Sequence record: OL631481.1
Source: Escherichia phage ECML-183-2
DNA: 64,000 nt
Strand: one strand, 5' to 3'
Positions within the stretch are counted from its first letter, which is position 1; the number at the start of each line of letters is the position of its first letter. A program made the translations under genes and the position numbers. Below are positions 10,146 to 49,124 of the stretch, one piece after another. The notes beneath the pieces are model-generated. The model was given only the letters and a program-made list of their open reading frames with translations. It did not search any database and was not told where the DNA came from.

Positions 10146-10224
10146 TGGAGGCGGGAATTGGATTTGAACCAATGATCTCCAGCATATGAAACTGGCGAGG
10201 ACGACCAGACTCCTCTATCCCGCT
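10146..10224 (-). tRNA. tRNA-Met(CAT)
   Basis: hand-folded cloverleaf: anticodon loop TTCATAT, T-arm ATTGG-TTCAAAT-CCAAT, encoded CCA; position 1-72 is an A-C mismatch. Confidence 0.6.
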
Positions 10225-10301
10225 ATTATGTATCCCGTGCTGGATTCGAACCAGCATCACAAAAATTGTGGATCTCTTATCCTGTAAGTCTAACGGGAAA
10301 C

Positions 10302-10375
10302 TGGTTGTTTCGACAAGAATCGAACTTGTGTCTCACGATTATCAGTCGTGGGTTCTACCATTGAACTACGAAACA
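10302..10375 (-). tRNA. tRNA-Ile(GAT)
   Basis: acceptor TGTTTCG/CGAAACA, anticodon stem CACGA/TCGTG with loop CTGATAA, T-loop TTCGATT, encoded CCA. Confidence 0.75.
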
Positions 10376-10438
10376 TTTAAAAGAATATCTCACGTCTGAT
10401 ACAGACTAACCTTTTGTCTGACGCATGAAATATTTAAT

Positions 10439-10515
10439 TGGTCGGAATTGCAGGATTCGAACCTGCGACCCTACGCTCCCAAAGCGTATGCTCTACCAAA
10501 CTGAGCTAAATTCCG
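10439..10515 (-). tRNA. tRNA-Pro(TGG)
   Basis: acceptor CGGAATT/AATTCCG, D-arm GCTC-AGTTTGGTA-GAGC, anticodon loop TTTGGGA, T-arm GCAGG-TTCGAAT-CCTGC, CCA. Confidence 0.8.
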
Positions 10516-10520
10516 TTATA

Positions 10521-10596
10521 TGGCTGGTCTGTCTGGATTTGAACCAAACCTACGACAGTCAAAGTGTCGTGTGCTACCGGACTACACTACAAACCA
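10521..10596 (-). tRNA. tRNA-Gln(TTG)
   Basis: acceptor TGGTTTG/CAGACCA, anticodon stem CGACA/TGTCG with loop CTTTGAC, T-loop TTCAAAT, CCA. Confidence 0.8.
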
Positions 10597-10694
10597 ATAA
10601 ATCATTTAATGAAGGGCAACCAGAAGAAGTGTGAGAGAAGGAGAAAACCATGAGTAAAAGAGAAAGTTTTCTGGCAACCCTTTATTAAATAATT

Positions 10695-10771
10695 TGGAGC
10701 GTTATATCGGATTCGAACCGATGCCACCGACTTGGAAGGACGGGATGCTGAACCGCTAACACTAATAACGC
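10695..10771 (-). tRNA. tRNA-Gly(TCC)
   Basis: acceptor GCGTTAT/ATAACGC, anticodon loop CTTCCAA (one stem mismatch), T-arm ATCGG-TTCGAAT-CCGAT, CCA. Confidence 0.65.
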
Positions 10772-10784
10772 TTTGTATATATTT

Positions 10785-10814
10785 ACTATACTACATTTTA
10801 CTATCGAATGTCAA
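10785..10814 (-). promoter_or_regulatory. sigma70-like promoter (TTGACA-N18-TATAGT) inside the tRNA cluster
   Basis: minus-strand TTGACA 10814-10809, 18 nt spacer, TATAGT 10790-10785; predicted start a few nt upstream of the tRNA-Gly 5' end. Confidence 0.5.
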
Positions 10815-11089
10815 TAGTTATTTAATAGGTGGGACAGTGACGAGTATCCCTTTGGGTGACTAGCCCTACGTTCGGTAAGCTAACTTAAAATAATACAAAA
10901 CCAAAGTCAAATATTATTCTTCGTTGCTGTCGATGGGAGAGCCGCTTCTTCTTTTGCCCCATCCAACCCTACTCCGGTCAAGTTTCAGGTAACTCTTTGT
11001 GTGATCAACACAATACTAAGAACACTGTCTTTCGAACAGACCTTGTGCACAGGATACGACGATCAATCACAGTGCCCTTAATGTTGTGT

Positions 11090-11164
11090 TGGTGCTCCCA
11101 CTCTGAATCGAACAGAGATCCACGGATTACAAAACCGTTGTAATAGCCATTATACTATAGGAGC
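11090..11164 (-). tRNA. tRNA-Thr(TGT)
   Basis: acceptor GCTCCTA/TGGGAGC, anticodon loop TTTGTAA, T-arm CTCTG-TTCGATT-CAGAG, CCA. Confidence 0.65.
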
Positions 11165-11255
11165 AAAGCTGGGACTCGGCAGGATTCGATACCTGCAATT
11201 CCAGAAGCCTCTTGGCGACTGGGGGGTTTACCTTAACTCTACAAGTCCATAATTC

Positions 11256-11341
11256 TGGCGATGAGTATAGGATTTGAACCTATATCGTTCTTTCGAACAC
11301 GGATTAACAGTCCGCCGCTTAAACCATTCAGCCAACTCATC
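11256..11341 (-). tRNA. tRNA with anticodon GTT (Asn-type) but type-II architecture
   Basis: acceptor GATGAGT/ACTCATC, anticodon stem GCGGA/TCCGT with loop CTGTTAA, extra variable hairpin GTTC-GAAA-GAAC, T-arm ATAGG-TTCAAAT-CCTAT, discriminator G, CCA. Confidence 0.5.
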
Positions 11342-11347
11342 TTAATT

Positions 11348-11435
11348 TGGTGGTGAGTGATGGAGTCGAACCACCCGAATCGCAATGATAACAGATTTAC
11401 AGTCTGCCCCGCTACCCCTACGGAATTAACTCACC
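11348..11435 (-). tRNA. tRNA-Tyr(GTA)
   Basis: acceptor GGTGAGT/ACTCACC, anticodon arm CAGA-CTGTAAA-TCTG, long variable arm, discriminator A, CCA. Confidence 0.8.
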
Positions 11436-11565
11436 TAAATGCTAATATTTAAATTCTTTTTAAAATAGCCAGTGTTCACACCACTAACTATGAGGTATCG
11501 GTAAAGTGGTTACCGCCACTTGCCGAAGATTTACTCTGCTAAAGTAAGCTATATTAAAAAGAACT

Positions 11566-11651
11566 TGGCGGTAGATGTAGGACTCGAACCTACACGCCGT
11601 TTCCGACTACAGTTTAGCAAACTGTCGTGGCTACCATTTCACCAATCTACC
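11566..11651 (-). tRNA. tRNA-Ser(GCT)
   Basis: acceptor GGTAGAT/ATCTACC, anticodon arm ACAGT-TTGCTAA-ACTGT, long variable arm, T-arm GTAGG-TTCGAGT-CCTAC, discriminator G, CCA. Confidence 0.8.
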
Positions 11652-11655
11652 AATC

Positions 11656-11746
11656 TGGCGGAAGGAGGGAGAGTCGAACTCCCAAGGCTCTTTCAAGCTC
11701 GGCGGTTTTCAAGACCGTTTTCGTCGCCACGTCGATTTGCCCTTCC
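11656..11746 (-). tRNA. tRNA-Ser(TGA)
   Basis: acceptor GGAAGGG/TCCTTCC, anticodon region ACGGTCTTGAAAACCGCC, long variable arm, T-arm GGGAG-TTCGACT-CTCCC, CCA. Confidence 0.8.
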
Positions 11747-11754
11747 ATACTTAT

Positions 11755-11784
11755 AATCTAACATAAAATAATGTTAGTTGTCAA
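11755..11784 (-). promoter_or_regulatory. sigma70-like promoter directly upstream of tRNA-Ser(TGA)
   Basis: minus-strand TTGACA 11784-11779 with a weak -10 about 17-18 nt downstream; tRNA 5' end at 11746. Confidence 0.35.
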
Positions 11785-11980
11785 TAGTTTTTTAAAACAT
11801 TTTACCATGAATGGTGACTCCACCAACCCCCGTTCTCAGCGAACGGTGCTCTTCGAGCATTTATGTCTTCTAATATAACCGTGGCCTTTGTTTATAATGT
11901 CTGACATACTTACCTCATTCTCTGCCACCATGATCAGTAGTGGGTTCAAATCACTTGAGCTAATTCATGTTAAAATGTTC

Positions 11981-12055
11981 TGGTGTCTTTACAAGGAATC
12001 GAACCTTGACTAAGAGTTTAGAAGACTCCTGTGCTATCCATTACACCATAAAGAC
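11981..12055 (-). tRNA. tRNA-Arg(TCT)
   Basis: acceptor GTCTTTA/TAAAGAC, D-arm GTGT-AATGGATA-GCAC, anticodon loop CTTCTAA, T-arm CAAGG-TTCGATT-CCTTG, CCA. Confidence 0.75.
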
Positions 12056-12057
12056 GT

Positions 12058-12132
12058 TGGTGGCCCTGGCTGGTTTCGATCCAGCTACCTATCGGTTATG
12101 AGCCGACAGCTCTCCCATTGAGCTACAGGGCC
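12058..12132 (-). tRNA. tRNA with CAT anticodon (Ile2-lysidine type or elongator Met)
   Basis: acceptor GGCCCTG/CAGGGCC, D-arm GCTC-AATGGGA-GAGC, anticodon loop CTCATAA, T-arm GCTGG-ATCGAAA-CCAGC, CCA; overall resembles bacterial tRNA-Ile2. Confidence 0.7.
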
Positions 12133-15408: not shown

Positions 15409-15875
15409 GAATTAAAGTAACTAAAGCTTACGATGATAACCCGAAGTTTATCTCTTTGAATAAGAGTTATGGTGTAGAAAACGGCGATGAGTTCGAGGTT
15501 ATCGATCTTTTTGAAGACCACGGTTATATTGTCAAAGCCCCAATCACAGAGCAGGCTATTATCATCTTACGCACAGAGGCTGTTGAGGTAGGTTCTGATG
15601 AGCCTCAATATGACAGCCCATACATGACAGAGTGGATCGTAGCTGTGGATGTTGGAGGTATGGTTTCTGTACTGAAAGCTCCTAATCTCCATCCTGGTTT
15701 TACAGAGAACGGTAAGACAGCTTTGGATTATGGGTTGCCAGAAGATGTTGAGAATACACCGCCAGGTATGTACCGTTGGATTTGCTCTTTCCATGAAGAG
15801 AAGGATTGGGAATCAGGGCTTGTAGATGATTGGCATTTTGAAGTGGAGAGTTCTTTTTTAATCATGCCAGCTTAG
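15405..15875 (+). CDS. hypothetical protein
   Basis: 156 aa ORF. Confidence 0.5.
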   Translation: MRIKVTKAYDDNPKFISLNKSYGVENGDEFEVIDLFEDHGYIVKAPITEQAIIILRTEAVEVGSDEPQYDSPYMTEWIVAVDVGGMVSVLKAPNLHPGFTENGKTALDYGLPEDVENTPPGMYRWICSFHEEKDWESGLVDDWHFEVESSFLIMPA

Positions 15876-15885
15876 AGGAGGTTAT

Positions 15886-16230
15886 ATGAAAGTTTGGATA
15901 GATGATATGCGGAACCCAGCCGACTATGGACAGGAAGATGCAATTTGGTTTAAAACGTCACAAGAAGCTATGGCTTTTCTCAATGATCCTGCTAAACTGT
16001 ATCGAAGAGTAACCGAGTGGTCTTTTGACAATGATTTAGGTATGGAGTCAGACCAAGATGGGTATGATGTTTTCCTGTACCTGGAAGAACTTCTGGCGTT
16101 TGGTAAACCTTGCTTTGGTTCACCCACCATTTTCGTGCATACTTCTAATCCCGCCGCTGGGGATAAATTCATGCTTGCAAAAGAATCCATGCTGCGTTAT
16201 GGTATTAAAATGATTCGTGTGCACTATTAA
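15886..16230 (+). CDS. hypothetical protein
   Basis: 114 aa ORF, RBS GAGGAGG. Confidence 0.5.
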   Translation: MKVWIDDMRNPADYGQEDAIWFKTSQEAMAFLNDPAKLYRRVTEWSFDNDLGMESDQDGYDVFLYLEELLAFGKPCFGSPTIFVHTSNPAAGDKFMLAKESMLRYGIKMIRVHY

Positions 16231-16239
16231 GGAGAGAAC

Positions 16240-16383
16240 ATGCATCATTCGGTTTGGTCGGAACAAGAAGAGGACGAAGGTTACTTTATCTACCGAGAAG
16301 AAGAGGATTGGCCCGACACAAGTAATGATCTTTTACTTCCAGATACTAGTTTTATCGAGGATAACTTAAGAGAGGAGGATTAG
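16240..16383 (+). CDS. small acidic protein (47 aa)
   Basis: RBS AGGAGAG before ATG; below ORF-track length cutoff. Confidence 0.3.
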   Translation: MHHSVWSEQEEDEGYFIYREEEDWPDTSNDLLLPDTSFIEDNLREED

Positions 16384-16389
16384 GAAACA

Positions 16390-16746
16390 ATGAGTGGTAT
16401 TGAAAACAATATTTGTTACCAACCTCTTACCTGGATTGGTGAGGGTCATTATGCGCAACGTGTTATCGTCTGTGCTGCGAATAAGTATATTTTGAATAAT
16501 GGTGAAGAGTTAATTATTCCTTGTGTTCGACATGCAAATCCTGTACTATATGCACAGTTAAGCGTGTTGAAAGAAGCAGGTGTAATCAACAAAACTTTGT
16601 GCACACCAGATAATCAAGGCTTTATCGATCAGTATTACAATTGGTGGAGTCGTGCGGATGCTTACGTCATCGCGGAAAATGCTGACCAGATCGACCATGA
16701 GCGTAATGGTCACGACCATGAATTATTTAGCGAGGGATTATACTAA
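16390..16746 (+). CDS. hypothetical protein
   Basis: 118 aa ORF. Confidence 0.5.
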   Translation: MSGIENNICYQPLTWIGEGHYAQRVIVCAANKYILNNGEELIIPCVRHANPVLYAQLSVLKEAGVINKTLCTPDNQGFIDQYYNWWSRADAYVIAENADQIDHERNGHDHELFSEGLY

Positions 16747-17297
16747 TGTTTATTACAAGCGATTTGCATTTTATGCATAAACGTATTCGAGAGTTTGCTC
16801 CTGAATATCGTCCGTGGGAAGATATGGACCACATGACAGAAGCCTTGATCGAAGCATGGAACAAATGTGCTACTACTCCTGGTGTTAAGATGTGGCATTT
16901 GGGCGACTTCTGTTTCGGAACTGAAGAAGATACCCGTAAAATTGCTTCCCGTCTCCAAGGAGATATCACCTACTGTGTTGGGAACCATGACTACAGCAAA
17001 CACCGAGAAGTGCTTGCAGAGTATGGAGAAGTGGTGTATTATGACGAAGTGAAATATCAGAAGCTGTTCTTCGTCTTAAGCCATTACCCTATGGCCTCCT
17101 GGAATAAACAAGGTCGTGGATCAATCATGCTACACGGGCATTCCCACGGATCTTTCCCTGATGAAGCTTATGGTAAAATGTTAGATGTGGGTTGGGATGC
17201 ACACGGAAAAATCTTGCATTTTGATGAGATAATTTCTATGATGAGTAAACGAGATATCGTGACTGTAGACCATCACAAAATAATCAAAGGAGAGTAA
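16746..17297 (+). CDS. calcineurin-like metallophosphoesterase (candidate RNA 3'-end healing phosphatase)
   Basis: motifs DLHF, GDF, GNHD, HGHSHG; directly upstream of ligase and kinase. Confidence 0.65.
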   Translation: MFITSDLHFMHKRIREFAPEYRPWEDMDHMTEALIEAWNKCATTPGVKMWHLGDFCFGTEEDTRKIASRLQGDITYCVGNHDYSKHREVLAEYGEVVYYDEVKYQKLFFVLSHYPMASWNKQGRGSIMLHGHSHGSFPDEAYGKMLDVGWDAHGKILHFDEIISMMSKRDIVTVDHHKIIKGE

Positions 17298-17298
17298 T

Positions 17299-18231
17299 GT
17301 GACTAAATTTAATTGCGACGATTTGGTTGAAAAAGGTTTAGTTCATAAGAAAACATATAAAGAAGGAGAGTATTCTGGTCTATCTGTTCTTAAGTATAAG
17401 AACAAAGTTTTCTGGGATAACTTATGGAGCATTGATTCTCGTCTTCTAGAATGTCGCGGAATCGTTGTTGATGCTGATGACAATGTTGTTATTTGGCCTT
17501 TCACTAAGATTTTTAATCGTTTTGAGAATGGCACAGATCTACCAGCGGATGAACTTGTAGATGTGGTTCGTAAAGTAAATGGTTTTATGGCCTCTGTAGG
17601 TGTATATAAAGGTCAACTTATTGTATCGACAACAGGAAGCCTTGAATCAGATTTTGCAAGTATTGCAAAGAATCATATTGTTTCAGAGTGTGATGACATA
17701 GAACATTTCATCAAATGGACAGAGAGTGCAAAAGCAACTTTCCTTTTTGAAATCTGCGATCCTTCTGATCCGCATATTGTCGAAGAAGAACCAGGTGCAT
17801 ACTTAATTGGTGCCAGAATTCAAAATCCTGATGGGACAAGTTTTATGTTACCTGAAGGTGCTCTTGATGGAATTGCTTCTGTCACCAAATTTAAGCGTCC
17901 TGAAGTTCATTCGATGGTTAAGTTTTCAGATGTTGTTGAAATGTCTAAACATTGTAAACACGAAGGGTTTGTAGTTCGTGAAACAAACTATCCGTTCAAC
18001 TTGCTTTTAAAAATTAAATCACCACACTATCTTACTAAGAAGTTTCTTATGCGTGGTGGAGATAAAAAGTGGGATCTGATTTGGGATAATCCAAAAAATG
18101 CCAAACAAATTGTTGACGAAGAATATTACGCTTTGTTAGAATGGATTCGAAATAATTTTACGAAGACTCAATGGGCTGCTTTAAATCAGCAAGAGCGACG
18201 TGAAAAAATCGAAAACTTCTTTGGGGGATAA
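17299..18231 (+). CDS. ATP-dependent RNA ligase-like nucleotidyltransferase
   Basis: motif I KVNGF, motif IV EGFVVRE, motif V LLKIKS; GTG start; flanked by phosphoesterase and kinase. Confidence 0.6.
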   Translation: MTKFNCDDLVEKGLVHKKTYKEGEYSGLSVLKYKNKVFWDNLWSIDSRLLECRGIVVDADDNVVIWPFTKIFNRFENGTDLPADELVDVVRKVNGFMASVGVYKGQLIVSTTGSLESDFASIAKNHIVSECDDIEHFIKWTESAKATFLFEICDPSDPHIVEEEPGAYLIGARIQNPDGTSFMLPEGALDGIASVTKFKRPEVHSMVKFSDVVEMSKHCKHEGFVVRETNYPFNLLLKIKSPHYLTKKFLMRGGDKKWDLIWDNPKNAKQIVDEEYYALLEWIRNNFTKTQWAALNQQERREKIENFFGG

Positions 18232-18636
18232 ATGAAACAACTTATCATTTTACGTGGCGTTTCAGGTGCTGGTAAATCTACGGTAGCAGAAATTATTTCT
18301 GAAGGTTATTGGCCTATCTGTGAGGCAGATCAATATCATTACACAGAAAGTGGTGTTTACGATTGGAAGCCAGAAAATGTAGGTAAAGCACACGCATGGT
18401 GTCAGAGTATTGTTCGTGATGCTATGAAATCTGATCTTAAAAAGATTATTGTTTCTAACACTTCAACCACAGAGAAAGAACTTAAACCTTATTTAACTCT
18501 TGCTGAAGAGTTTGGTTATCAAGTTATCTCTTTAGTTGTTGAAAATAGACACGGTAACGATTCAATTCACGAGGTTCCACAACATATTCGTGATCAACAA
18601 GAGAAACGTCTTCGTGGTTCACTTAAACTTCAATAA
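18232..18636 (+). CDS. P-loop kinase, polynucleotide 5'-kinase-like
   Basis: Walker A GVSGAGKST near N-terminus; 134 aa; ATGA-coupled to the ligase gene. Confidence 0.55.
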   Translation: MKQLIILRGVSGAGKSTVAEIISEGYWPICEADQYHYTESGVYDWKPENVGKAHAWCQSIVRDAMKSDLKKIIVSNTSTTEKELKPYLTLAEEFGYQVISLVVENRHGNDSIHEVPQHIRDQQEKRLRGSLKLQ

Positions 18637-18645
18637 GGAGAGATA

Positions 18646-18972
18646 ATGCAAATTTATACAGATGATCGTAAATATGAGACAATTTTAGACGAAGATACTG
18701 GACGAATTACCGTTCTCCGTCACGGTGAAGAGTGGCGTGATGAAACTGGGGATAACTATATCTTATCTCTGATTCATCTTATTGAACAAATGCGTGATGA
18801 TTACGCTGAACTGCATTATGAAAATGAGGCGAATAAAGTAAAATTTGAAAATGAATTAGAAGAGAAAGAATCAGAAATGGTATATCTAAAAGAAGAGATC
18901 TCCCGTTTGGAGGAAGAGATTGATGCTCTTCAGGAAGAGATTTACGAACTCAACAACGAACTGAACTCTTAA
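18646..18972 (+). CDS. hypothetical coiled-coil protein
   Basis: 108 aa, Glu/Leu-rich heptads at C-terminus. Confidence 0.45.
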   Translation: MQIYTDDRKYETILDEDTGRITVLRHGEEWRDETGDNYILSLIHLIEQMRDDYAELHYENEANKVKFENELEEKESEMVYLKEEISRLEEEIDALQEEIYELNNELNS

Positions 18973-18981
18973 GGAGAGATT

Positions 18982-19173
18982 ATGAAAAAAGATATCGTTG
19001 TTGTTGGTTGGCTGACTTGCCCTTGTGGTAGTAATGACATAACTGTAAACACAGAGGGTGATAAAAATTATTTATTCTACGGTGATAAAATCACTTGCAA
19101 TACCTGCGGACGTGTTGGTATTATAGAAACCGATGATTGCTGCGTTTTTGAATCTTGGGATGAAGATGAATGA
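18982..19173 (+). CDS. zinc-ribbon protein
   Basis: CPCG ... CNTCG pairs. Confidence 0.45.
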   Translation: MKKDIVVVGWLTCPCGSNDITVNTEGDKNYLFYGDKITCNTCGRVGIIETDDCCVFESWDEDE

Positions 19174-19391
19174 GTACTGCATTTTATGTTCGTAGCGGGG
19201 ACGAGGATTTTCTAGCTACTTTTGATGACGGTGATCTTGAAGATATGTATGAAGATATGCTTGACTATGCCAAAGGGCAAGGTTTCACAAGCATTGATTA
19301 TATGTTGGCAACATCTACAACGTTACTCGACGCAGATTTGGATGAAGTGTGTAACAGATTGAAAATTTCAGTTTTTAAATGGGAGGACTAA
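19170..19391 (+). CDS. small acidic protein
   Basis: 73 aa, Asp/Glu-rich. Confidence 0.4.
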   Translation: MSTAFYVRSGDEDFLATFDDGDLEDMYEDMLDYAKGQGFTSIDYMLATSTTLLDADLDEVCNRLKISVFKWED

Positions 19392-20506
19392 TGCAACAAA
19401 CAAATCAAACGCTGTATGGTAAAGATTCAAAAGGAAAACTTAAACAGTGGACAGTGTATACAGATGGTGCAGTTGTTACTGTAGCTCATGGAAGGGTAGG
19501 TGGAAAAATCACAGAAAAATCTTATACAGCAGAAGCAAAAAACATTGGTCGTTCCAATGAAACAACACCGGAAGAACAAGCTGAACTTGAAGCTTTTGCC
19601 AAATGGACAAAACAGTTAAAGAATGGCTATTATAAAACAAAAGAAGAAGCTGAAAACCATGTTCCTTCCACACCAATGAAATGCCAGGATTATAAAGATT
19701 ATCCTGAAAAGGTTGTGTTCCCTGGTTATGCACAATACAAACTGAACGGGTTACGTTCTATGATTAACATGAAAGGGGAGTGTTTATCAAAAGCTGGGGA
19801 AGTGTATAACCTACCACCTCATTGGAAAGGTATTCCAAACTTTATTAGTGAAGTTGTTGGTCATCCTCTTGATGGTGAAGTGTTTGCTGGGTTAGGTGTC
19901 CTTAGTCTGCAACAAATTAACAGTGCTTGGAAGAAGCATAATGCAAATACACCTTTGCTGAATTATTACGTATACGATATTCCAGTTCCAGGCCTACCGT
20001 TTGAAAAACGTGTTGATGCTCTTGCTGCTCTTAAGGCAGTAGTTGAAGATTATGGTCTTGACGAGCTTATTTGTGTAGTTCATACAGAGTATATTGAAAA
20101 CCAAGAACAGTTTGATGCTTTCTATGAAAAAGCTTTACTTGAGAAAGCTGAAGGTGTAGTATATCGTAATGCTCACGGAGTTTACGAATTTGATAAACGT
20201 TCTTATGACGTTATTAAACGTAAGCCTCGCCACACCCTTGAAGTTAAAGTAACACATTCAAAAAGTGATAAAAATGGCGATGGAGTGTTGACAGGTGAGA
20301 TGGAAAATGGTAAAGTAGTCGAATTCTTAATGCGTAAAGATGCTCATGAGACTATCAATTATCGTAAAGCAGAGAATGCTTCTACCTTGATTAATCAGTT
20401 CGTTGAAATAGAGTATGAAGAATTTTCAGATGAAGGTATTCCAACAAAACCTGTTGGTGTTCGTATTCGAGAAATGATCCCAGGCACTTGGGAACCAGCA
20501 GAATAA
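19379..20506 (+). CDS. ATP-dependent ligase (DNA or RNA), nucleotidyltransferase superfamily
   Basis: motif I YKLNGLR (KxNG), motif IV EGVVYR, motif V VIKRK; 375 aa. Confidence 0.55.
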   Translation: MGGLMQQTNQTLYGKDSKGKLKQWTVYTDGAVVTVAHGRVGGKITEKSYTAEAKNIGRSNETTPEEQAELEAFAKWTKQLKNGYYKTKEEAENHVPSTPMKCQDYKDYPEKVVFPGYAQYKLNGLRSMINMKGECLSKAGEVYNLPPHWKGIPNFISEVVGHPLDGEVFAGLGVLSLQQINSAWKKHNANTPLLNYYVYDIPVPGLPFEKRVDALAALKAVVEDYGLDELICVVHTEYIENQEQFDAFYEKALLEKAEGVVYRNAHGVYEFDKRSYDVIKRKPRHTLEVKVTHSKSDKNGDGVLTGEMENGKVVEFLMRKDAHETINYRKAENASTLINQFVEIEYEEFSDEGIPTKPVGVRIREMIPGTWEPAE

Positions 20507-20515
20507 GGAGGAAAA

Positions 20516-20710
20516 ATGTTCTTAGCCATTTTAATCGTTTTCAGTGTGCTTTCTTTTTATTGTATGAATGCTTCTGAAAACTTTCCTAAGAATTCAAAGA
20601 AAAGAACCGTATGTGTTGCGATTGATTCATGTATGTCTGGAGTTGGGTATGCGGTAGTTTCTTGTTTCTTAGCTTATCATTGTGCAAAATACCTGGAGGC
20701 ATTTTTATGA
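20516..20710 (+). CDS. small membrane protein
   Basis: 64 aa, hydrophobic. Confidence 0.4.
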   Translation: MFLAILIVFSVLSFYCMNASENFPKNSKKRTVCVAIDSCMSGVGYAVVSCFLAYHCAKYLEAFL

Positions 20711-20889
20711 TAATTTTAGCAACAATTCTTATGATGTTGATAGCAATTGCTATTATAATTCTGGCATCTTTTCCGGCGGATAAATGGTATTTCAATATTC
20801 CACGTATGCTTGTTTTCGGTTTCGCAGGGATTTACATGGGTGAGTCTGTAGCAAATATTAGCAACTTTCTAGAAAGCTATTTTAAATAA
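20707..20889 (+). CDS. small membrane protein
   Basis: ATGA overlap; two hydrophobic helices. Confidence 0.4.
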   Translation: MIILATILMMLIAIAIIILASFPADKWYFNIPRMLVFGFAGIYMGESVANISNFLESYFK

Positions 20890-20898
20890 GGAGTTATA

Positions 20899-21624
20899 AT
20901 GATCGAGAATTTTTTTAAAGATATTAAATTCGATACTGAATTTTTCAAAAATGCAGCAAAGCACGTGATTGATTGGAATGCCAAAGCACGAGGTGGTGAA
21001 CAACCGGAATTCACTCAAGAGCTATTTATGTCCCAAATCGGGTTCGTTCGTGAAGAGCTTAAAGAGTATGAAACAGCCGCGAAAGTAAACGATCATGTAG
21101 AACTCTTGGATGCAGCAGCGGATATTTTTGTAGTATCCAGTTATCTGACCTACATGTTCTTTGGTGAAGAACATACGATGAATTTCTTGGACTATGCTGT
21201 AGGCGATGTTTTTACTCCAACTGTGTATACTGATTTTGATGCTTTGGAACAAACATTTACAGAGCCAGTTCAAATGGCACTAATGGCTGCTGGTATTATG
21301 CGTATGTCTCGTGACACTCTAATCCGTTCAAAATATCCAGAAAAGAAAGTTATTAAAGAGGTATTGAAAAGTAATGATTCCAAGTATCCAACTAAACAAC
21401 AGTTGCTGAAAACTTGGAAAACTTCGGATATCGATTCAGCCATTGCACAAGAATGCGCTGCAATTGAAGAACGAAATGCCAATCGTCCAGAAGGGGCATA
21501 CACTGGTGTTCATGCTGTTTATAATGAAAAACAGAAAGTGTATGTGTTCTTTGATGATAAAGGTAAGATCATGAAACCATCGACCTTTGTCAAACCTAAT
21601 ATTGCAGGTATTATTAATAAGTAA
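20899..21624 (+). CDS. MazG-like nucleoside triphosphate pyrophosphohydrolase (putative)
   Basis: all-alpha NTP-PPase-like EExxE...ELLDAAADIFVV motif. Confidence 0.4.
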   Translation: MIENFFKDIKFDTEFFKNAAKHVIDWNAKARGGEQPEFTQELFMSQIGFVREELKEYETAAKVNDHVELLDAAADIFVVSSYLTYMFFGEEHTMNFLDYAVGDVFTPTVYTDFDALEQTFTEPVQMALMAAGIMRMSRDTLIRSKYPEKKVIKEVLKSNDSKYPTKQQLLKTWKTSDIDSAIAQECAAIEERNANRPEGAYTGVHAVYNEKQKVYVFFDDKGKIMKPSTFVKPNIAGIINK

Positions 21625-40624: not shown

Positions 40625-40954
40625 ATGGAAATTACTACAGAACAAGCCCTTATCGACGAGGGTCGTAAAATCTTAGAAAAGTATTTAGGGGAGATTCATA
40701 AAACCCCTGGCTATTTGGGTTGGAGAATTGTTGAAGCTGTAGATTTCCTTCCTCGTAACAGTAAAAACGTCGAAATGCGATCTCTTTTCTTATTAGTAAA
40801 GGTGGATGGGGATACGCCTTTTAAAGATGCCGCAGAACATATTGAAAAAGTTGAAGAGAAAGCTTATGCAGAATTTGCCGATCTTGTTTTAGAACAAGAG
40901 ATTGAAGGAAAGGTGAATATTTTTATTTTCTTAGATTTTGAGGAGGATAAGTGA
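40625..40954 (+). CDS. hypothetical protein
   Basis: 109 aa. Confidence 0.45.
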   Translation: MEITTEQALIDEGRKILEKYLGEIHKTPGYLGWRIVEAVDFLPRNSKNVEMRSLFLLVKVDGDTPFKDAAEHIEKVEEKAYAEFADLVLEQEIEGKVNIFIFLDFEEDK

Positions 40955-41694
40955 TCATACACAGAGAAATTACTGTTAAAAGCGATCAAGATCTTTTTAT
41001 AATTGGAGATCTACACGGTTGTTATAATTTGTATGAAAAAGGAAAGGCAAAGTTAGGTATCCGAGATACAGATGTGGTTGTATCTCTAGGAGATCTTACT
41101 GACCGTGGAAAGCAAAACTTTCGTTGTGTTTTAGAATTTACTCGTAAACACAATCGCTACGCTATTCGTGGCAATCATGAAGACATGATGATTAAAGGTA
41201 TGCTGGAAGGAGATCGTAGCTACTACGAGTGTTGGTATCAAAATGGAGGATATACGGTCTTTGAAGAATGTGGTGAAGAAGGAGCTACAGCCTTAGCAAT
41301 GATGACAGAAGATTTACCTGTTGTTCTCATTGTTAACTACAGAGGCATGAAACTTGCGTTTATTCATGGTGGGTATCCATCTTCTTTGGAATATCTCCCT
41401 GTAACAGATATTCCAGAATACATTTCGAAGATGACAAAAACACAGGAAAACCGTTTTGCTGAAGCACTTATGTGGGACAGAGATATGGTAGACTGTGCTA
41501 AAGAGGGAATGAAACTTCCTGTTGTGATGGGTGTGGATTATGTGTTTCATGGACACTCTTATGTAAAAACACCTATTATCAATGCGAATCGTGTTTATAT
41601 GGATACTGGATCTGTGTTCAATAATAACTTAACATTTGCTTATTTCGATATGGACGGTGGTCTTCAATTTTATTCAACTCTTGAGGAGGATTAA
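40951..41694 (+). CDS. Ser/Thr protein phosphatase (lambda-PPase-like metallophosphatase)
   Basis: GDLHGCY, GDLTDRG, GNHED motifs. Confidence 0.7.
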   Translation: MIIHREITVKSDQDLFIIGDLHGCYNLYEKGKAKLGIRDTDVVVSLGDLTDRGKQNFRCVLEFTRKHNRYAIRGNHEDMMIKGMLEGDRSYYECWYQNGGYTVFEECGEEGATALAMMTEDLPVVLIVNYRGMKLAFIHGGYPSSLEYLPVTDIPEYISKMTKTQENRFAEALMWDRDMVDCAKEGMKLPVVMGVDYVFHGHSYVKTPIINANRVYMDTGSVFNNNLTFAYFDMDGGLQFYSTLEED

Positions 41695-48308: not shown

Positions 48309-49124
48309 ATGCCGCGTAGAGTCATATTCATAACTGGCGCAGGACTATCTGTGGATAGCGGTATCCCAGCTTTTAGAACAGATACTTCTTCAGGGGAGGC
48401 GTTATGGTCTTCTTATAATCTTTCTGAAGTCTGTGACATTTTCAACTTCCGTGACGGTTATCAGCAAGAACAAGGTATTCTGGATGCTATGGGCGGTTTA
48501 GATGCGGAAGGATATAACCTCTACCGTAAAACTCACGACTTTTACAATAAACGTCGCGCGGAATTAGAGAAAGTTGACCCGAATCCGGCACATCTTCAGA
48601 TTGGGGAATGGTTCAAAAAACATGGTGCAGAAAAGATTATTAACATCACTACTAACGTTGATGACCTCCTTGAACGAGCAGGAGTAGATAGGGAAGAAGT
48701 GCTACATGTGCATGGTTTTCTTCCTGAAATTACTTTTCAAAGAAAAGCTGGACAACCTACAATTGTAAAAGATGTTGGTTATCAAGCCATAGATGTAGAT
48801 GACTACCATTATGTAAAACCTAATGTAATCTTCTTTGGGGAAGCTGCTCCACTTTACACAGATATGTATCATATTTTTGATACACTGACGGCTCAAGATA
48901 TGGTTATCGTTGTAGGCTGCTCTAACCAAGTAATCAACTTCAACTGGGAACTCTTCCCTGCCCTGAATATTGGGGTTAAGATGGTTGTAGTTAACCCAGG
49001 TTTGAATTTTGTAGAACAAACTCTCTACGAAGAACGTGGAGTGCTTGTCTACCGAGAGAAAGCAGGAACAGTCTTCAGTGATGAAGGCTTTATCAAAATG
49101 GTTGAAGACCATTTAAACAAATAA
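48309..49124 (+). CDS. Sir2-family (sirtuin-like) NAD-dependent protein lacking the zinc ribbon
   Basis: ITGAGLSVDSGIPAFR, LHVHGF, PNVIFFGE, VIVVGCS; no CxxC pairs. Confidence 0.65.
   Translation: MPRRVIFITGAGLSVDSGIPAFRTDTSSGEALWSSYNLSEVCDIFNFRDGYQQEQGILDAMGGLDAEGYNLYRKTHDFYNKRRAELEKVDPNPAHLQIGEWFKKHGAEKIINITTNVDDLLERAGVDREEVLHVHGFLPEITFQRKAGQPTIVKDVGYQAIDVDDYHYVKPNVIFFGEAAPLYTDMYHIFDTLTAQDMVIVVGCSNQVINFNWELFPALNIGVKMVVVNPGLNFVEQTLYEERGVLVYREKAGTVFSDEGFIKMVEDHLNK

What the first reader, a model, noticed from the sequence alone, without database searches (positions are those of the whole stretch)
16746..18636. Three-gene RNA end-healing and sealing cassette (metallophosphoesterase, RNA-ligase-like, P-loop kinase) beside the tRNA cluster
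Three consecutive, translationally coupled genes encode a calcineurin-type phosphoesterase (DLHF/GDF/GNHD/HGHSHG), a nucleotidyltransferase with ligase motifs I (KVNGF), IV (EGFVVRE) and V (LLKIKS), and a small Walker-A kinase (GVSGAGKST). Together these supply the three activities of a polynucleotide kinase-phosphatase plus ligase RNA repair pathway, here as separate polypeptides. T4 Pnkp plus Rnl1 repair tRNA cut by the PrrC anticodon nuclease, and bacterial Pnkp fuses kinase, calcineurin-like phosphatase and ligase-like domains. With at least 12 phage tRNAs nearby, this looks like a counter-defence module against host tRNA-cleaving or tRNA-depleting immunity.
Basis: partly seen in the sequence, partly recalled or inferred. 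Interest (0 to 1): 0.8.

Follow-up and report, generated by a model that had tools for sequence, protein, structure and literature searches.

The report
Phage RNA break-repair gene cassette
A phAPEC8-like E. coli phage carries three back-to-back genes (phosphoesterase, RNA ligase, polynucleotide kinase) that most likely clean up and rejoin cut RNA such as tRNA; the prediction is sound, but it is already annotated and published for these phages and has never been tested biochemically.

Summary
Three tightly abutted genes lie at 16746-18636 in a Phapecoctavirus genome, and all quoted motifs are present.

- **Kinase:** it groups with the T4, Clostridium and Capnocytophaga polynucleotide kinases, not with nucleotide kinases.
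- **Phosphoesterase:** it has all the metal ligands, but belongs to the uncharacterised aq_1665/COG4186 family. Its 3'-end-healing role rests on genomic context.

That context is strong. Of 40 ligase lineages in viral contigs, 33 keep both the kinase and the phosphoesterase within 7 kb, in at least six gene orders. Two lineages fuse kinase and ligase into one protein. Kinase homologues that lack this ligase sit near other RNA ligases.

The counter-defence role remains an inference.

Novelty is low. GenBank records already name these genes. Iyer et al. 2022 described the homologous neighbourhood (tRNA ligase, cREC, kinase, MazG, calcineurin-like phosphoesterase, sirtuin) as phage RNA repair. 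A cREC gene, a MazG-like gene and a distant Sir2 gene are also in this window.

The parts
16746..17297 (+). Calcineurin-type metallophosphoesterase of the aq_1665/COG4186 family. Predicted RNA 2',3'-cyclic-phosphate / 3'-phosphate end-healing enzyme.
   Evidence: Pfam Metallophos and Metallophos_2, and phrog_547 at E 6.5e-56. A family profile hits PDB 1xm7 (aq_1665, function unknown) at E 3.9e-22. D6, H8, D54, N80, H113, H132 and H134 are invariant in 28 homologues. It lies within 7 kb of the ligase in 68 of 80 ligase loci.
17299..18231 (+). ATP-dependent RNA ligase with an Rnl1/Trl1-type adenylyltransferase domain and its own short helical C-terminal module. Predicted sealing enzyme.
18232..18636 (+). 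Small P-loop polynucleotide 5'-kinase-like protein. Predicted 5'-OH end-healing enzyme.
   Evidence: Pfam AAA_33 and phrog_2071. The top PDB hits of a family profile are Pnkp1, T4 Pnk and CthPnk. The AF2 model has pLDDT 90, and its top Foldseek hits are CthPnk and T4 Pnk at TM 0.75-0.79. It is fused to the ligase in 10 viral contigs.
15886..16230 (+). cREC (cyclic-phosphate processing receiver-like) domain protein. Likely accessory member of the module.
   Evidence: Pfam PF20274 at E 3.9e-17. In related phages this gene sits between the ligase and the kinase. It is predicted, but untested, to open cyclic phosphates (PMC7824862, PMC9503650).
16390..16746 (+). T4 Arn.3-like protein of unknown function. 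It overlaps the phosphoesterase start by one base. Probably not a specific member of the module.
   Evidence: phrog_839. tblastn finds homologues in 1487 phage records, including T4 arn.3. It lies near the ligase in only 3 of 80 loci.
20899..21624 (+). MazG/PRA-PH-like nucleotide pyrophosphohydrolase, a recurrent neighbour of the module.
   Evidence: Pfam PF01503 at E 2.7e-6. It is present downstream in 13 of 80 ligase loci. It is listed in the published neighbourhood type (PMC9503650, section 3.7.3).
10146..12132 (-). Phage tRNA cluster, transcribed divergently from the cassette's gene block.
   Evidence: ARAGORN finds 10 tRNAs. Rfam finds 11 above gathering score plus 2 weaker hits. tRNA genes lie within 7 kb of the ligase in 23 of 60 related loci.
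48309..49124 (+). Sir2-family protein, a possible distal member. Its homologue is adjacent to the module in Vequintavirus.
   Evidence: Pfam SIR2 at E 3.2e-21. It is 47% identical to the sirtuin that lies next to the ligase and cREC genes in phage AlexBoehm.
22593..22616 (+). Terminator-like hairpin that probably ends the + strand gene block containing the cassette.
   Evidence: Consensus scan only. A terminator is annotated at the equivalent place in phage Schickermooser.

Best explanation
The three genes form a split RNA 'heal and seal' module of a phAPEC8-like phage. The proposed mechanism is as follows.

1. A host or competitor ribonuclease cuts an RNA, most plausibly a tRNA anticodon loop. 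This leaves a 2',3'-cyclic phosphate and a 5'-OH.
2. The metallophosphoesterase removes the cyclic or 3' phosphate to give a 3'-OH.
3. The small P-loop kinase phosphorylates the 5'-OH.
4. The Rnl1/Trl1-type ligase, through a lysyl-AMP intermediate on Lys92, rejoins the ends.

The cREC protein may help to open cyclic phosphates.

What is shown here: fold and family assignment, conservation of catalytic residues, and gene linkage. What is inferred: the phosphoesterase's substrate, tRNA as the target, and the counter-defence purpose.
For: **Ligase**
- Pfam RNA_lig_T4_1 at E 1e-15. A family profile hits T4 Rnl1 at E 1e-10.
- From that alignment, the window residues R53, K70, F72, K92, G95, E151, E222, G223, K238 and K240 match T4 R54, K75, F77, K99, G102, E159, E227, G228, K240 and K242. 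Most are invariant in the family.

**Kinase**
- The best profile and fold hits are polynucleotide kinases.
- D33 matches the T4 general base D35. The invariant V115-P116 matches T4 V131-P132, which line the 5'-nucleoside pocket (residue roles from PMC2831316).

**Phosphoesterase**
- All the canonical metal ligands are invariant.

**Context**
- Of 80 ligase loci, 73 have the kinase and 68 have the phosphoesterase within 7 kb.
- Of 40 lineages clustered at 70% identity, 33 have both, in at least six gene orders.
- Two lineages (10 loci) encode a kinase-ligase fusion of about 430 aa.
- Kinase homologues without this ligase still pair with the phosphoesterase (51 of 80 loci overall). Their neighbourhoods are richest in PF09414 RNA ligase, the PHA02142 OB domain and RlaP.
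- The same module with a flanking tRNA cluster occurs in Vequintavirus AlexBoehm.
Against: - No biochemical or genetic test exists for any of the three proteins. Literature searches found none.
- The phosphoesterase family has no known function. About half of its viral homologues lie without the ligase or kinase nearby.
- A close relative (L083) keeps the phosphoesterase but has lost the ligase and kinase.
- The kinase lacks counterparts of T4 Arg38 (His36 here) and Asp85 (Asn76 here).
- The ligase lacks a counterpart of T4 Lys119 (Thr112 here). It also lacks the long T4 C-terminal domain that confers tRNA specificity.
- The tRNA cluster is 4.6 kb away on the other strand.
- Only 23 of 60 related loci have a tRNA gene within 7 kb.
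Confidence: 0.7

Rival explanations
1. The module uses a Trl1-like, NAD-linked chemistry rather than the T4-like one. cREC opens the cyclic phosphate to a 2'-phosphate. The ligase seals 3'-OH,2'-PO4 ends with 5'-PO4 ends. The Sir2 protein removes the junction 2'-phosphate, much as KptA/Tpt1 does. The metallophosphoesterase and MazG-like enzyme then process the ADP-ribose by-products or 3'-phosphate ends.
For: - Iyer et al. 2022 proposed this for the homologous Vequintavirus neighbourhood.
- cREC, MazG-like and Sir2 genes are all in the window.
- The Sir2 is 47% identical to the sirtuin adjacent to the module in AlexBoehm.
- An invariant basic cluster (K248, R252) follows motif V, roughly where Trl1 has its RxxR 2'-phosphate site (PMC6379707).
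Against: - cREC accompanies the ligase in only 10 of 80 loci, whereas the phosphoesterase does so in 68.
- Here the Sir2 gene is 30 kb away from the cassette.
- The activities of cREC and of this sirtuin clade are untested predictions.
- The basic-cluster resemblance is positional only.
Confidence: 0.15
2. The genes do not repair RNA damage. They act on nucleotides or DNA ends. The phosphoesterase would be a cyclic-nucleotide or signal-degrading enzyme. The kinase would be a nucleotide kinase. Together they would support the nearby DNA ligase, or the ligase would act as a T4 gp63-like tail-fibre attachment factor.
For: - The ATP-dependent DNA ligase, RdgC and exonuclease genes lie just downstream. 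A DNA ligase lies within 7 kb in 33 of 80 ligase loci.
- Many database records call the ligase a 'tail fiber attachment catalyst'.
- The phosphoesterase family is uncharacterised, and half of its members occur alone.
Against: - Fold and profile searches place the kinase with polynucleotide kinases, and NMP kinases score much worse.
- The kinase is fused to the RNA ligase in some phages. Elsewhere it pairs with other RNA ligase families.
- The 'tail fibre' label is annotation transferred from T4, with no evidence here.
Confidence: 0.08
3. The module is a housekeeping RNA-processing system for the phage's own transcripts, not a counter-defence device. It could, for example, mature or salvage phage tRNAs or rejoin processed RNAs.
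For: The module lies near a phage tRNA cluster here and in AlexBoehm. tRNA genes are within 7 kb in 23 of 60 related loci.
Against: - A close relative has lost the ligase and kinase, with an unrelated gene in their place. This suggests an accessory function, not an essential one.
- The one characterised precedent, T4 Pnkp with Rnl1, is a counter-defence pathway (Amitsur et al. 1987, cited in PMC10264068).
Confidence: 0.07

Closest known systems
Phage T4 Pnkp plus Rnl1 tRNA repair pathway (counters the PrrC anticodon nuclease)
   Different: - In T4 the kinase is fused to a HAD (DxDxT) phosphatase. Here the kinase stands alone and the phosphatase candidate is an unrelated metallophosphoesterase.
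- The ligase has a 66-aa C-terminal module in place of T4's 120-aa tRNA-specificity domain.
- It scores 25 bits against NCBIfam's T4 RnlA model, whose cut-off is 242.
Sirtuin-linked phage RNA-repair gene neighbourhood, type 2 of Iyer et al. 2022 (phage V5, Proteus phage Mydo)
   Same: The parts list is the same: T4-like tRNA ligase, cREC, kinase, MazG and a calcineurin-like phosphoesterase. The Vequintavirus AlexBoehm locus is directly homologous (ligase 47% identical, sirtuin 47% identical).
   Different: - Here the sirtuin is 30 kb away, not adjacent.
- Here cREC is upstream of the phosphoesterase, not between the ligase and the kinase.
- My survey finds the phosphoesterase to be a core partner of the ligase (68 of 80 loci), not an occasional one. 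cREC is the occasional partner (10 of 80).
Bacterial Pnkp-Hen1 RNA repair (Clostridium thermocellum) and Pnkp1-Rnl-Hen1 (Capnocytophaga gingivalis)
   Same: It combines a kinase, a metallophosphoesterase and a ligase. The best PDB sequence hit of the kinase profile is Pnkp1 (E 2.6e-7), and the best fold hit is CthPnk.
   Different: - Those systems fuse the domains into one polypeptide and need a Hen1 methyltransferase. No such gene was found among the cassette's neighbours.
- Their phosphatase is lambda-phosphatase-like, whereas the cassette's is aq_1665-like.
Fungal and plant tRNA ligase Trl1 (LIG, KIN and CPD domains)
   Different: Trl1 is one trifunctional protein with a 2H cyclic phosphodiesterase, and it requires a 2'-phosphate at the 3' end. 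Its C-terminal domain defines the Rnl6 clade (PMC6379707) and shows no sequence similarity to the phage C-terminus.
Aquifex aeolicus aq_1665 (PDB 1xm7), COG4186 metallophosphoesterase
   Same: It is the closest solved relative of the cassette phosphoesterase (profile E 3.9e-22).
   Different: It is a structural-genomics protein with no assigned function, so it says nothing about the substrate.

Membership tests
Rnl1 (T4 RnlA) RNA ligase family | Covalent nucleotidyltransferase motifs I, III, IV and V, with the motif I lysine | tested here: met
   K92 in KVNGF, E151, E222-G223, and K238 with K240 align to T4 K99, E159, E227-G228, and K240 with K242. They are invariant in 25 homologues.
Rnl1 (T4 RnlA) RNA ligase family | [quoted passage not shown] | tested here: met
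Rnl1 (T4 RnlA) RNA ligase family | The T4-type C-terminal all-helical domain (residues 255-374) that confers tRNA specificity. RNA ligase clades are defined by this appended domain (PMC6379707). | tested here: not met
Rnl1 (T4 RnlA) RNA ligase family | Curated family thresholds | tested here: inconclusive
   The protein passes Pfam PF09511 (58.6 bits, cut-off 28.3). It fails the NCBIfam equivalog TIGR02308 (25.2 bits, cut-off 242).
Polynucleotide 5'-kinase clade (T4 Pnk, CthPnk, Pnkp1) | P-loop GxxGxGK[ST] and the general-base Asp that contacts the 5'-OH (T4 Asp35) | tested here: met
   G9-T17 is GVSGAGKST. D33 is invariant and aligns to T4 D35.
Polynucleotide 5'-kinase clade (T4 Pnk, CthPnk, Pnkp1) | [quoted passage not shown] | tested here: not met
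   His36 and the invariant Asn76 occupy these positions. Mammalian Pnkp also lacks an Arg38 counterpart (PMC2831316), so this is not disqualifying.
Polynucleotide 5'-kinase clade (T4 Pnk, CthPnk, Pnkp1) | Fold closer to polynucleotide kinases than to nucleoside monophosphate kinases, and a Val-Pro nucleoside pocket | tested here: met
   Foldseek gives CthPnk and T4 Pnk TM 0.75-0.79, against adenylate and UMP-CMP kinases at about 0.5. The invariant V115-P116 aligns to T4 V131-P132.
Polynucleotide 5'-kinase clade (T4 Pnk, CthPnk, Pnkp1) | Phosphorylation of 5'-OH RNA or DNA ends | not testable with these tools
   This needs an enzyme assay.
Calcineurin-like metallophosphoesterase superfamily | Dinuclear metal-binding motifs DxH, GD, GNH[DE], H and GHxH | tested here: met
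   D6, H8, D54, N80, H81, H113, H132 and H134 are invariant in 28 homologues. Pfam PF00149 is above its cut-off.
Bacterial Pnkp-Hen1 RNA repair system | A single kinase-phosphoesterase-ligase polypeptide, a Hen1 methyltransferase partner, an Rnl4-type ligase and a lambda-phosphatase-like phosphoesterase | tested here: not met
   - The three proteins are separate.
- No methyltransferase was found among the neighbours scanned.
- The cassette phosphoesterase matches aq_1665, not lambda phosphatase. hhalign against the window's own lambda-phosphatase-like protein gives only 53% probability.
Sirtuin-linked phage RNA-repair neighbourhood (Iyer et al. 2022, type 2) | Co-located T4-like tRNA ligase, cREC, kinase, MazG, sometimes a calcineurin-like phosphoesterase, and a sirtuin | tested here: inconclusive
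   The ligase, cREC, kinase, MazG-like protein and phosphoesterase all lie within 15886-21624. The sirtuin homologue is present but 30 kb away, at 48309-49124.

The most novel reading that the evidence does not exclude
The phosphoesterase-ligase-kinase trio is a distinct and very widespread phage RNA-repair system. In it, the uncharacterised aq_1665/COG4186 metallophosphoesterase family is the 3'-end healing enzyme, which would be the first function assigned to that family. The ligase would found its own RNA ligase clade: an Rnl1/Rnl6-type adenylyltransferase with a unique short C-terminal module. It might have a substrate preference, such as 2'-phosphate ends or particular tRNAs, that differs from T4 Rnl1.
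Probability: 0.3. Interest if true: 0.5.

Novelty: new member of a known kind. Interest (0 to 1): 0.35.

Why it matters
tRNA-cleaving immune systems are increasingly recognised in bacteria. Examples are PrrC, RloC, PARIS, some retrons, Cas13 and HEPN toxins. Phages could answer them either by supplying their own tRNAs or by repairing broken ones.

This ligase family occurs in 677 of about 50,700 sequenced phage genomes. They include therapeutic-candidate phages of E. coli, Klebsiella, Pseudomonas, Acinetobacter and Vibrio. Yet none of its three enzymes has been studied.

Showing what the module repairs would do three things:
- explain part of the host range of these phages;
- give the first function to a conserved phosphoesterase family;
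- possibly add compact kinase and ligase enzymes to the molecular-biology toolbox.

The idea itself is not new. It extends the T4 paradigm and has already been predicted in print.

Tried and rejected
- Single-sequence searches of the ligase against PDB sequences found nothing. Only a family profile reached T4 Rnl1.
- The kinase alone gave only P-loop noise. Its profile was needed too.
- NCBIfam gave no usable assignment for any of the proteins.
- A profile of the ligase C-terminal 77 residues found no relative in the PDB, so the C-domain remains unplaced.
- Burroughs and Aravind 2016, the main survey of RNA repair systems, is not in the held library. I could not check whether it already lists this exact trio.
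- Literature searches for experiments on these genes in phAPEC8, phi92 or rV5-like phages, or for phage RNA-repair counter-defence beyond T4, found none.
- I considered adding the upstream, translationally coupled gene (16390-16746) to the module. I rejected this because it is a T4 Arn.3 homologue found in 1487 phage records and rarely lies near the ligase.
- I considered a Pnkp-Hen1 assignment and rejected it (see the membership rows).
Full report
**What the window is.** The region 15800-18700 is 98-99% identical to Escherichia phages of the genus Phapecoctavirus (phAPEC8, Schickermooser, ESCO5, ESCO13; subfamily Stephanstirmvirinae). In Schickermooser (MK373788) the three genes are already annotated as 'putative phosphoesterase or phosphohydrolase', 'putative RNA ligase' and 'putative polynucleotide kinase'. 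Other records call them metallophosphatase, RNA ligase and ATPase.

**Checking the observation.** The junctions are as follows:
- TAATG, a one-base overlap with the upstream gene;
- TAA, one base, then GTG, preceded by AAGGAGAG;
- TAAATG, preceded by GGGGG.

Homologues start at the same N-terminal residues, which supports the GTG start. Coupling is therefore plausible from the sequence. The tRNA count is softer than stated. ARAGORN finds 10 tRNAs at 10146-12132 on the minus strand. Rfam finds 11 above its gathering score and two weaker tRNA-like hits.

**The ligase.**
- Pfam RNA_lig_T4_1 matches at E 1.1e-15, and phrog_562 at 1.4e-70.
- A single-sequence search of the PDB found nothing. A profile of 25 homologues hits T4 Rnl1 at E 1.1e-10 over T4 residues 51-249.
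- In that alignment, window R53, K70, F72, K92, G95, E151, E222, G223, K238 and K240 stand at T4 R54, K75, F77, K99, G102, E159, E227, G228, K240 and K242.
- I recall these as the essential residues from the Shuman laboratory's mutagenesis. PMC6379707 confirms the roles of Arg54, Lys75 and Phe76.
- T4 Lys119 is replaced by an invariant Thr.
- The AlphaFold model is confident (pLDDT 92).
- The last 66 residues form six short helices and have no PDB sequence relative.
- RNA ligase clades are defined by the domain appended to the adenylyltransferase core (PMC6379707). On that rule the protein belongs to the Rnl1/Rnl6 lineage but is not a strict Rnl1. It also fails NCBIfam's T4 RnlA equivalog cut-off.

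**The kinase.**
- Pfam gives only AAA_33, and the single sequence finds only P-loop noise in the PDB.
- A profile of 28 homologues ranks Capnocytophaga Pnkp1 first (E 2.6e-7). A fungal Trl1-type kinase, T4 Pnk and Clostridium thermocellum Pnk follow. All are polynucleotide kinases of RNA repair or splicing.
- The model (pLDDT 90) is closest to CthPnk and T4 Pnk (TM 0.75-0.79), then to the tRNA kinase PSTK. Adenylate and UMP-CMP kinases reach only about 0.5.
- The invariant D33 aligns with the T4 general base Asp35. The invariant V115-P116 aligns with T4 Val131-Pro132, which line the pocket for the 5' nucleoside.
- T4 Arg38 and Asp85 are replaced by His36 and Asn76 (residue roles from PMC2831316).
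- From memory, the family's 'AD.YH ... AH.WC ... NT.T ... ENRHG ... H.VP' pattern also resembles the N4BP2-type kinase domain. I could not test this.

**The phosphoesterase.**
- All the canonical dinuclear-metal ligands are invariant in 28 homologues.
- The only solved relative is Aquifex aq_1665 (1xm7, profile E 3.9e-22), which has no known function.
- It is not the lambda-phosphatase-like type found in bacterial Pnkp.
- The window does encode such a protein elsewhere, at 40951-41694 (lambda phosphatase 1g5b, E 5.5e-27). It is only marginally related to the cassette enzyme.
- The RNA end-healing role of the cassette phosphoesterase therefore rests on context.

**Context across phages.** Three surveys of viral contigs were made, each centred on one gene.

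*Ligase-centred loci:*
- Of 80 loci, 73 hold the kinase family and 68 hold the phosphoesterase family within 7 kb.
- Clustered at 70% ligase identity, 33 of 40 lineages have both.
- The gene orders include KIN-LIG-MPE (15 lineages), MPE-LIG-KIN (13), MPE-LIG-cREC-KIN, cREC-MPE-LIG-KIN, LIG-KIN-MPE, LIG-MPE-KIN and a divergent arrangement.
- Two lineages (10 loci) encode one protein of about 430 aa, with the kinase at the N-terminus and the ligase at the C-terminus.

*Kinase-centred loci:*
- Of 80 loci, 51 have the phosphoesterase and 34 have this ligase family.
- In the 46 loci without this ligase, the commonest Pfam families among large neighbouring ORFs are the PHA02142 OB domain (10) and PF09414 RNA ligase (9). 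RlaP, an RNA-repair-associated nucleotidyltransferase, is also present.
- The kinase therefore keeps company with RNA ligases of more than one family.

*Phosphoesterase-centred loci:*
- Of 80 loci, 43 have the ligase and 38 have the kinase. This family is broader than the module.

The loci are not phylogenetically independent, and I ran no formal test. Even so, conserved proximity through repeated rearrangement, together with a fusion, is standard strong evidence for a shared pathway.

**Additional members and the published precedent.**
- The gene at 15886-16230 is a cREC domain protein (PF20274, E 3.9e-17).
- Aravind and colleagues defined cREC as a predicted cyclic-phosphate-processing enzyme linked to RNA ligases (PMC7824862).
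- Iyer et al. [quoted passage not shown] They interpreted it as clean-up of 2',3'-cyclic phosphate RNA ends (PMC9503650 section 3.7.3).
- The window has the MazG-like gene at 20899-21624 and a Sir2 gene at 48309-49124.
- That Sir2 is 47% identical to the sirtuin lying beside the ligase and cREC genes in the BASEL Vequintavirus AlexBoehm.
- In AlexBoehm the authors already annotate 'polynucleotide kinase', 'putative phosphoresterase' and 'RNA ligase'. A tRNA cluster flanks that module as it does here.
- The cassette is thus a member of an already described type. My survey adds that the phosphoesterase, not cREC or the sirtuin, is the usual partner of the ligase and kinase.

**Mechanism.**
- The best-supported reading is T4-like chemistry: the phosphoesterase removes the cyclic or 3' phosphate, the kinase phosphorylates the 5'-OH, and the ligase seals.
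- The main rival is Trl1-like chemistry with a 2'-phosphate intermediate, resolved by the sirtuin. It is not excluded.
- Points in the rival's favour: the ligase is as close to Trl1-LIG as to T4 Rnl1, and an invariant K248/R252 cluster follows motif V near where Trl1 has its RxxR 2'-phosphate site (PMC6379707). That resemblance is positional only.

**Target and purpose.**
- tRNA repair as counter-defence follows from the T4 precedent (Amitsur et al. 1987, cited in PMC10264068).
- It also fits the recurrent, though not universal, proximity to tRNA genes (23 of 60 loci).
- It further fits the module's accessory nature. A close relative (L083) retains cREC, the Arn.3-like gene and the phosphoesterase, but has a 112-aa HExxH-motif ORF in place of the ligase and kinase.
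- None of this has been tested.

**Verdict.** Novelty is low, because the genes are annotated and the neighbourhood type is published. The module is widespread (677 phage records carry the ligase family) and has never been characterised biochemically, so it remains a reasonable experimental target.

Noticed in passing
L083 7558-7896 (equivalent to window 17285-18635): A closely related 153-kb viral contig (phosphoesterase 95% identical) keeps cREC, the Arn.3-like gene, the phosphoesterase and the downstream genes. It has lost the ligase and kinase. In their place is one 112-aa ORF with an HEAIH (HExxH) motif.
   Followed up: partly
L049 6539-7831 and nine similar loci (L051, L052, L057-L062, L065): Natural fusion proteins of about 430 aa, with the small kinase at the N-terminus and the Rnl1-like ligase at the C-terminus. 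No phosphoesterase homologue lies within 7 kb in these contigs.
   Followed up: partly
window 11351-11435, 11660-11746 and 10231-10299 (minus strand): Three tRNA-like sequences inside the tRNA cluster that ARAGORN does not call. Rfam scores them at 39 bits (tRNA), 37 bits (tRNA-Sec model, below its cut-off) and 28.8 bits (just below the tRNA cut-off).
   Followed up: no
window 40951-41694 (+): A second metallophosphoesterase, a clear lambda phosphatase (NinI) homologue (1g5b, E 5.5e-27). This is the family whose members are known to have 2',3'-cyclic phosphodiesterase activity and that supplies the phosphatase domain of bacterial Pnkp. It could be an alternative or additional 3'-end healing enzyme.
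   Followed up: partly
window 48309-49124 (+): A Sir2-family gene, 47% identical to the sirtuin that lies directly beside the RNA ligase and cREC genes in Vequintavirus AlexBoehm. Here it is separated from the cassette by 30 kb.
   Followed up: partly
window 16390-16746 (+): The gene that overlaps the phosphoesterase start is a homologue of T4 Arn.3, whose function is unknown. Many records label it 'anti-restriction nuclease', apparently by transfer from the neighbouring T4 arn gene.
   Followed up: partly
window 15886-16230 (+): In ESCO5 and related records the cREC protein is annotated 'putative RNA ligase and tail attachment protein'. It has no ligase domain, so this is probably an annotation carried over from its gene neighbour or from fusion proteins.
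   Followed up: no
window 15800-18700, compared with the phage collection: Records named Campylobacter phage B15 and Acinetobacter phage vB_AbaM_ABPW7 are 97-98% identical to E. coli Phapecoctaviruses over this region. The host labels look doubtful.
   Followed up: no
kinase-centred loci L156-L241: Where the small kinase occurs without the Rnl1-like ligase, it often sits next to the phosphoesterase. The neighbourhood also holds PF09414-type RNA ligases with a PHA02142 OB domain, and occasionally RlaP. The kinase-phosphoesterase pair thus looks like a portable healing unit that combines with different ligases.
   Followed up: partly
window about 31-37 kb (by correspondence with Schickermooser gp084-gp087): The phage carries a four-gene dTDP-rhamnose biosynthesis set (rmlA-D-like), according to the annotation of the near-identical reference genome. 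I did not verify this in the window.
   Followed up: no
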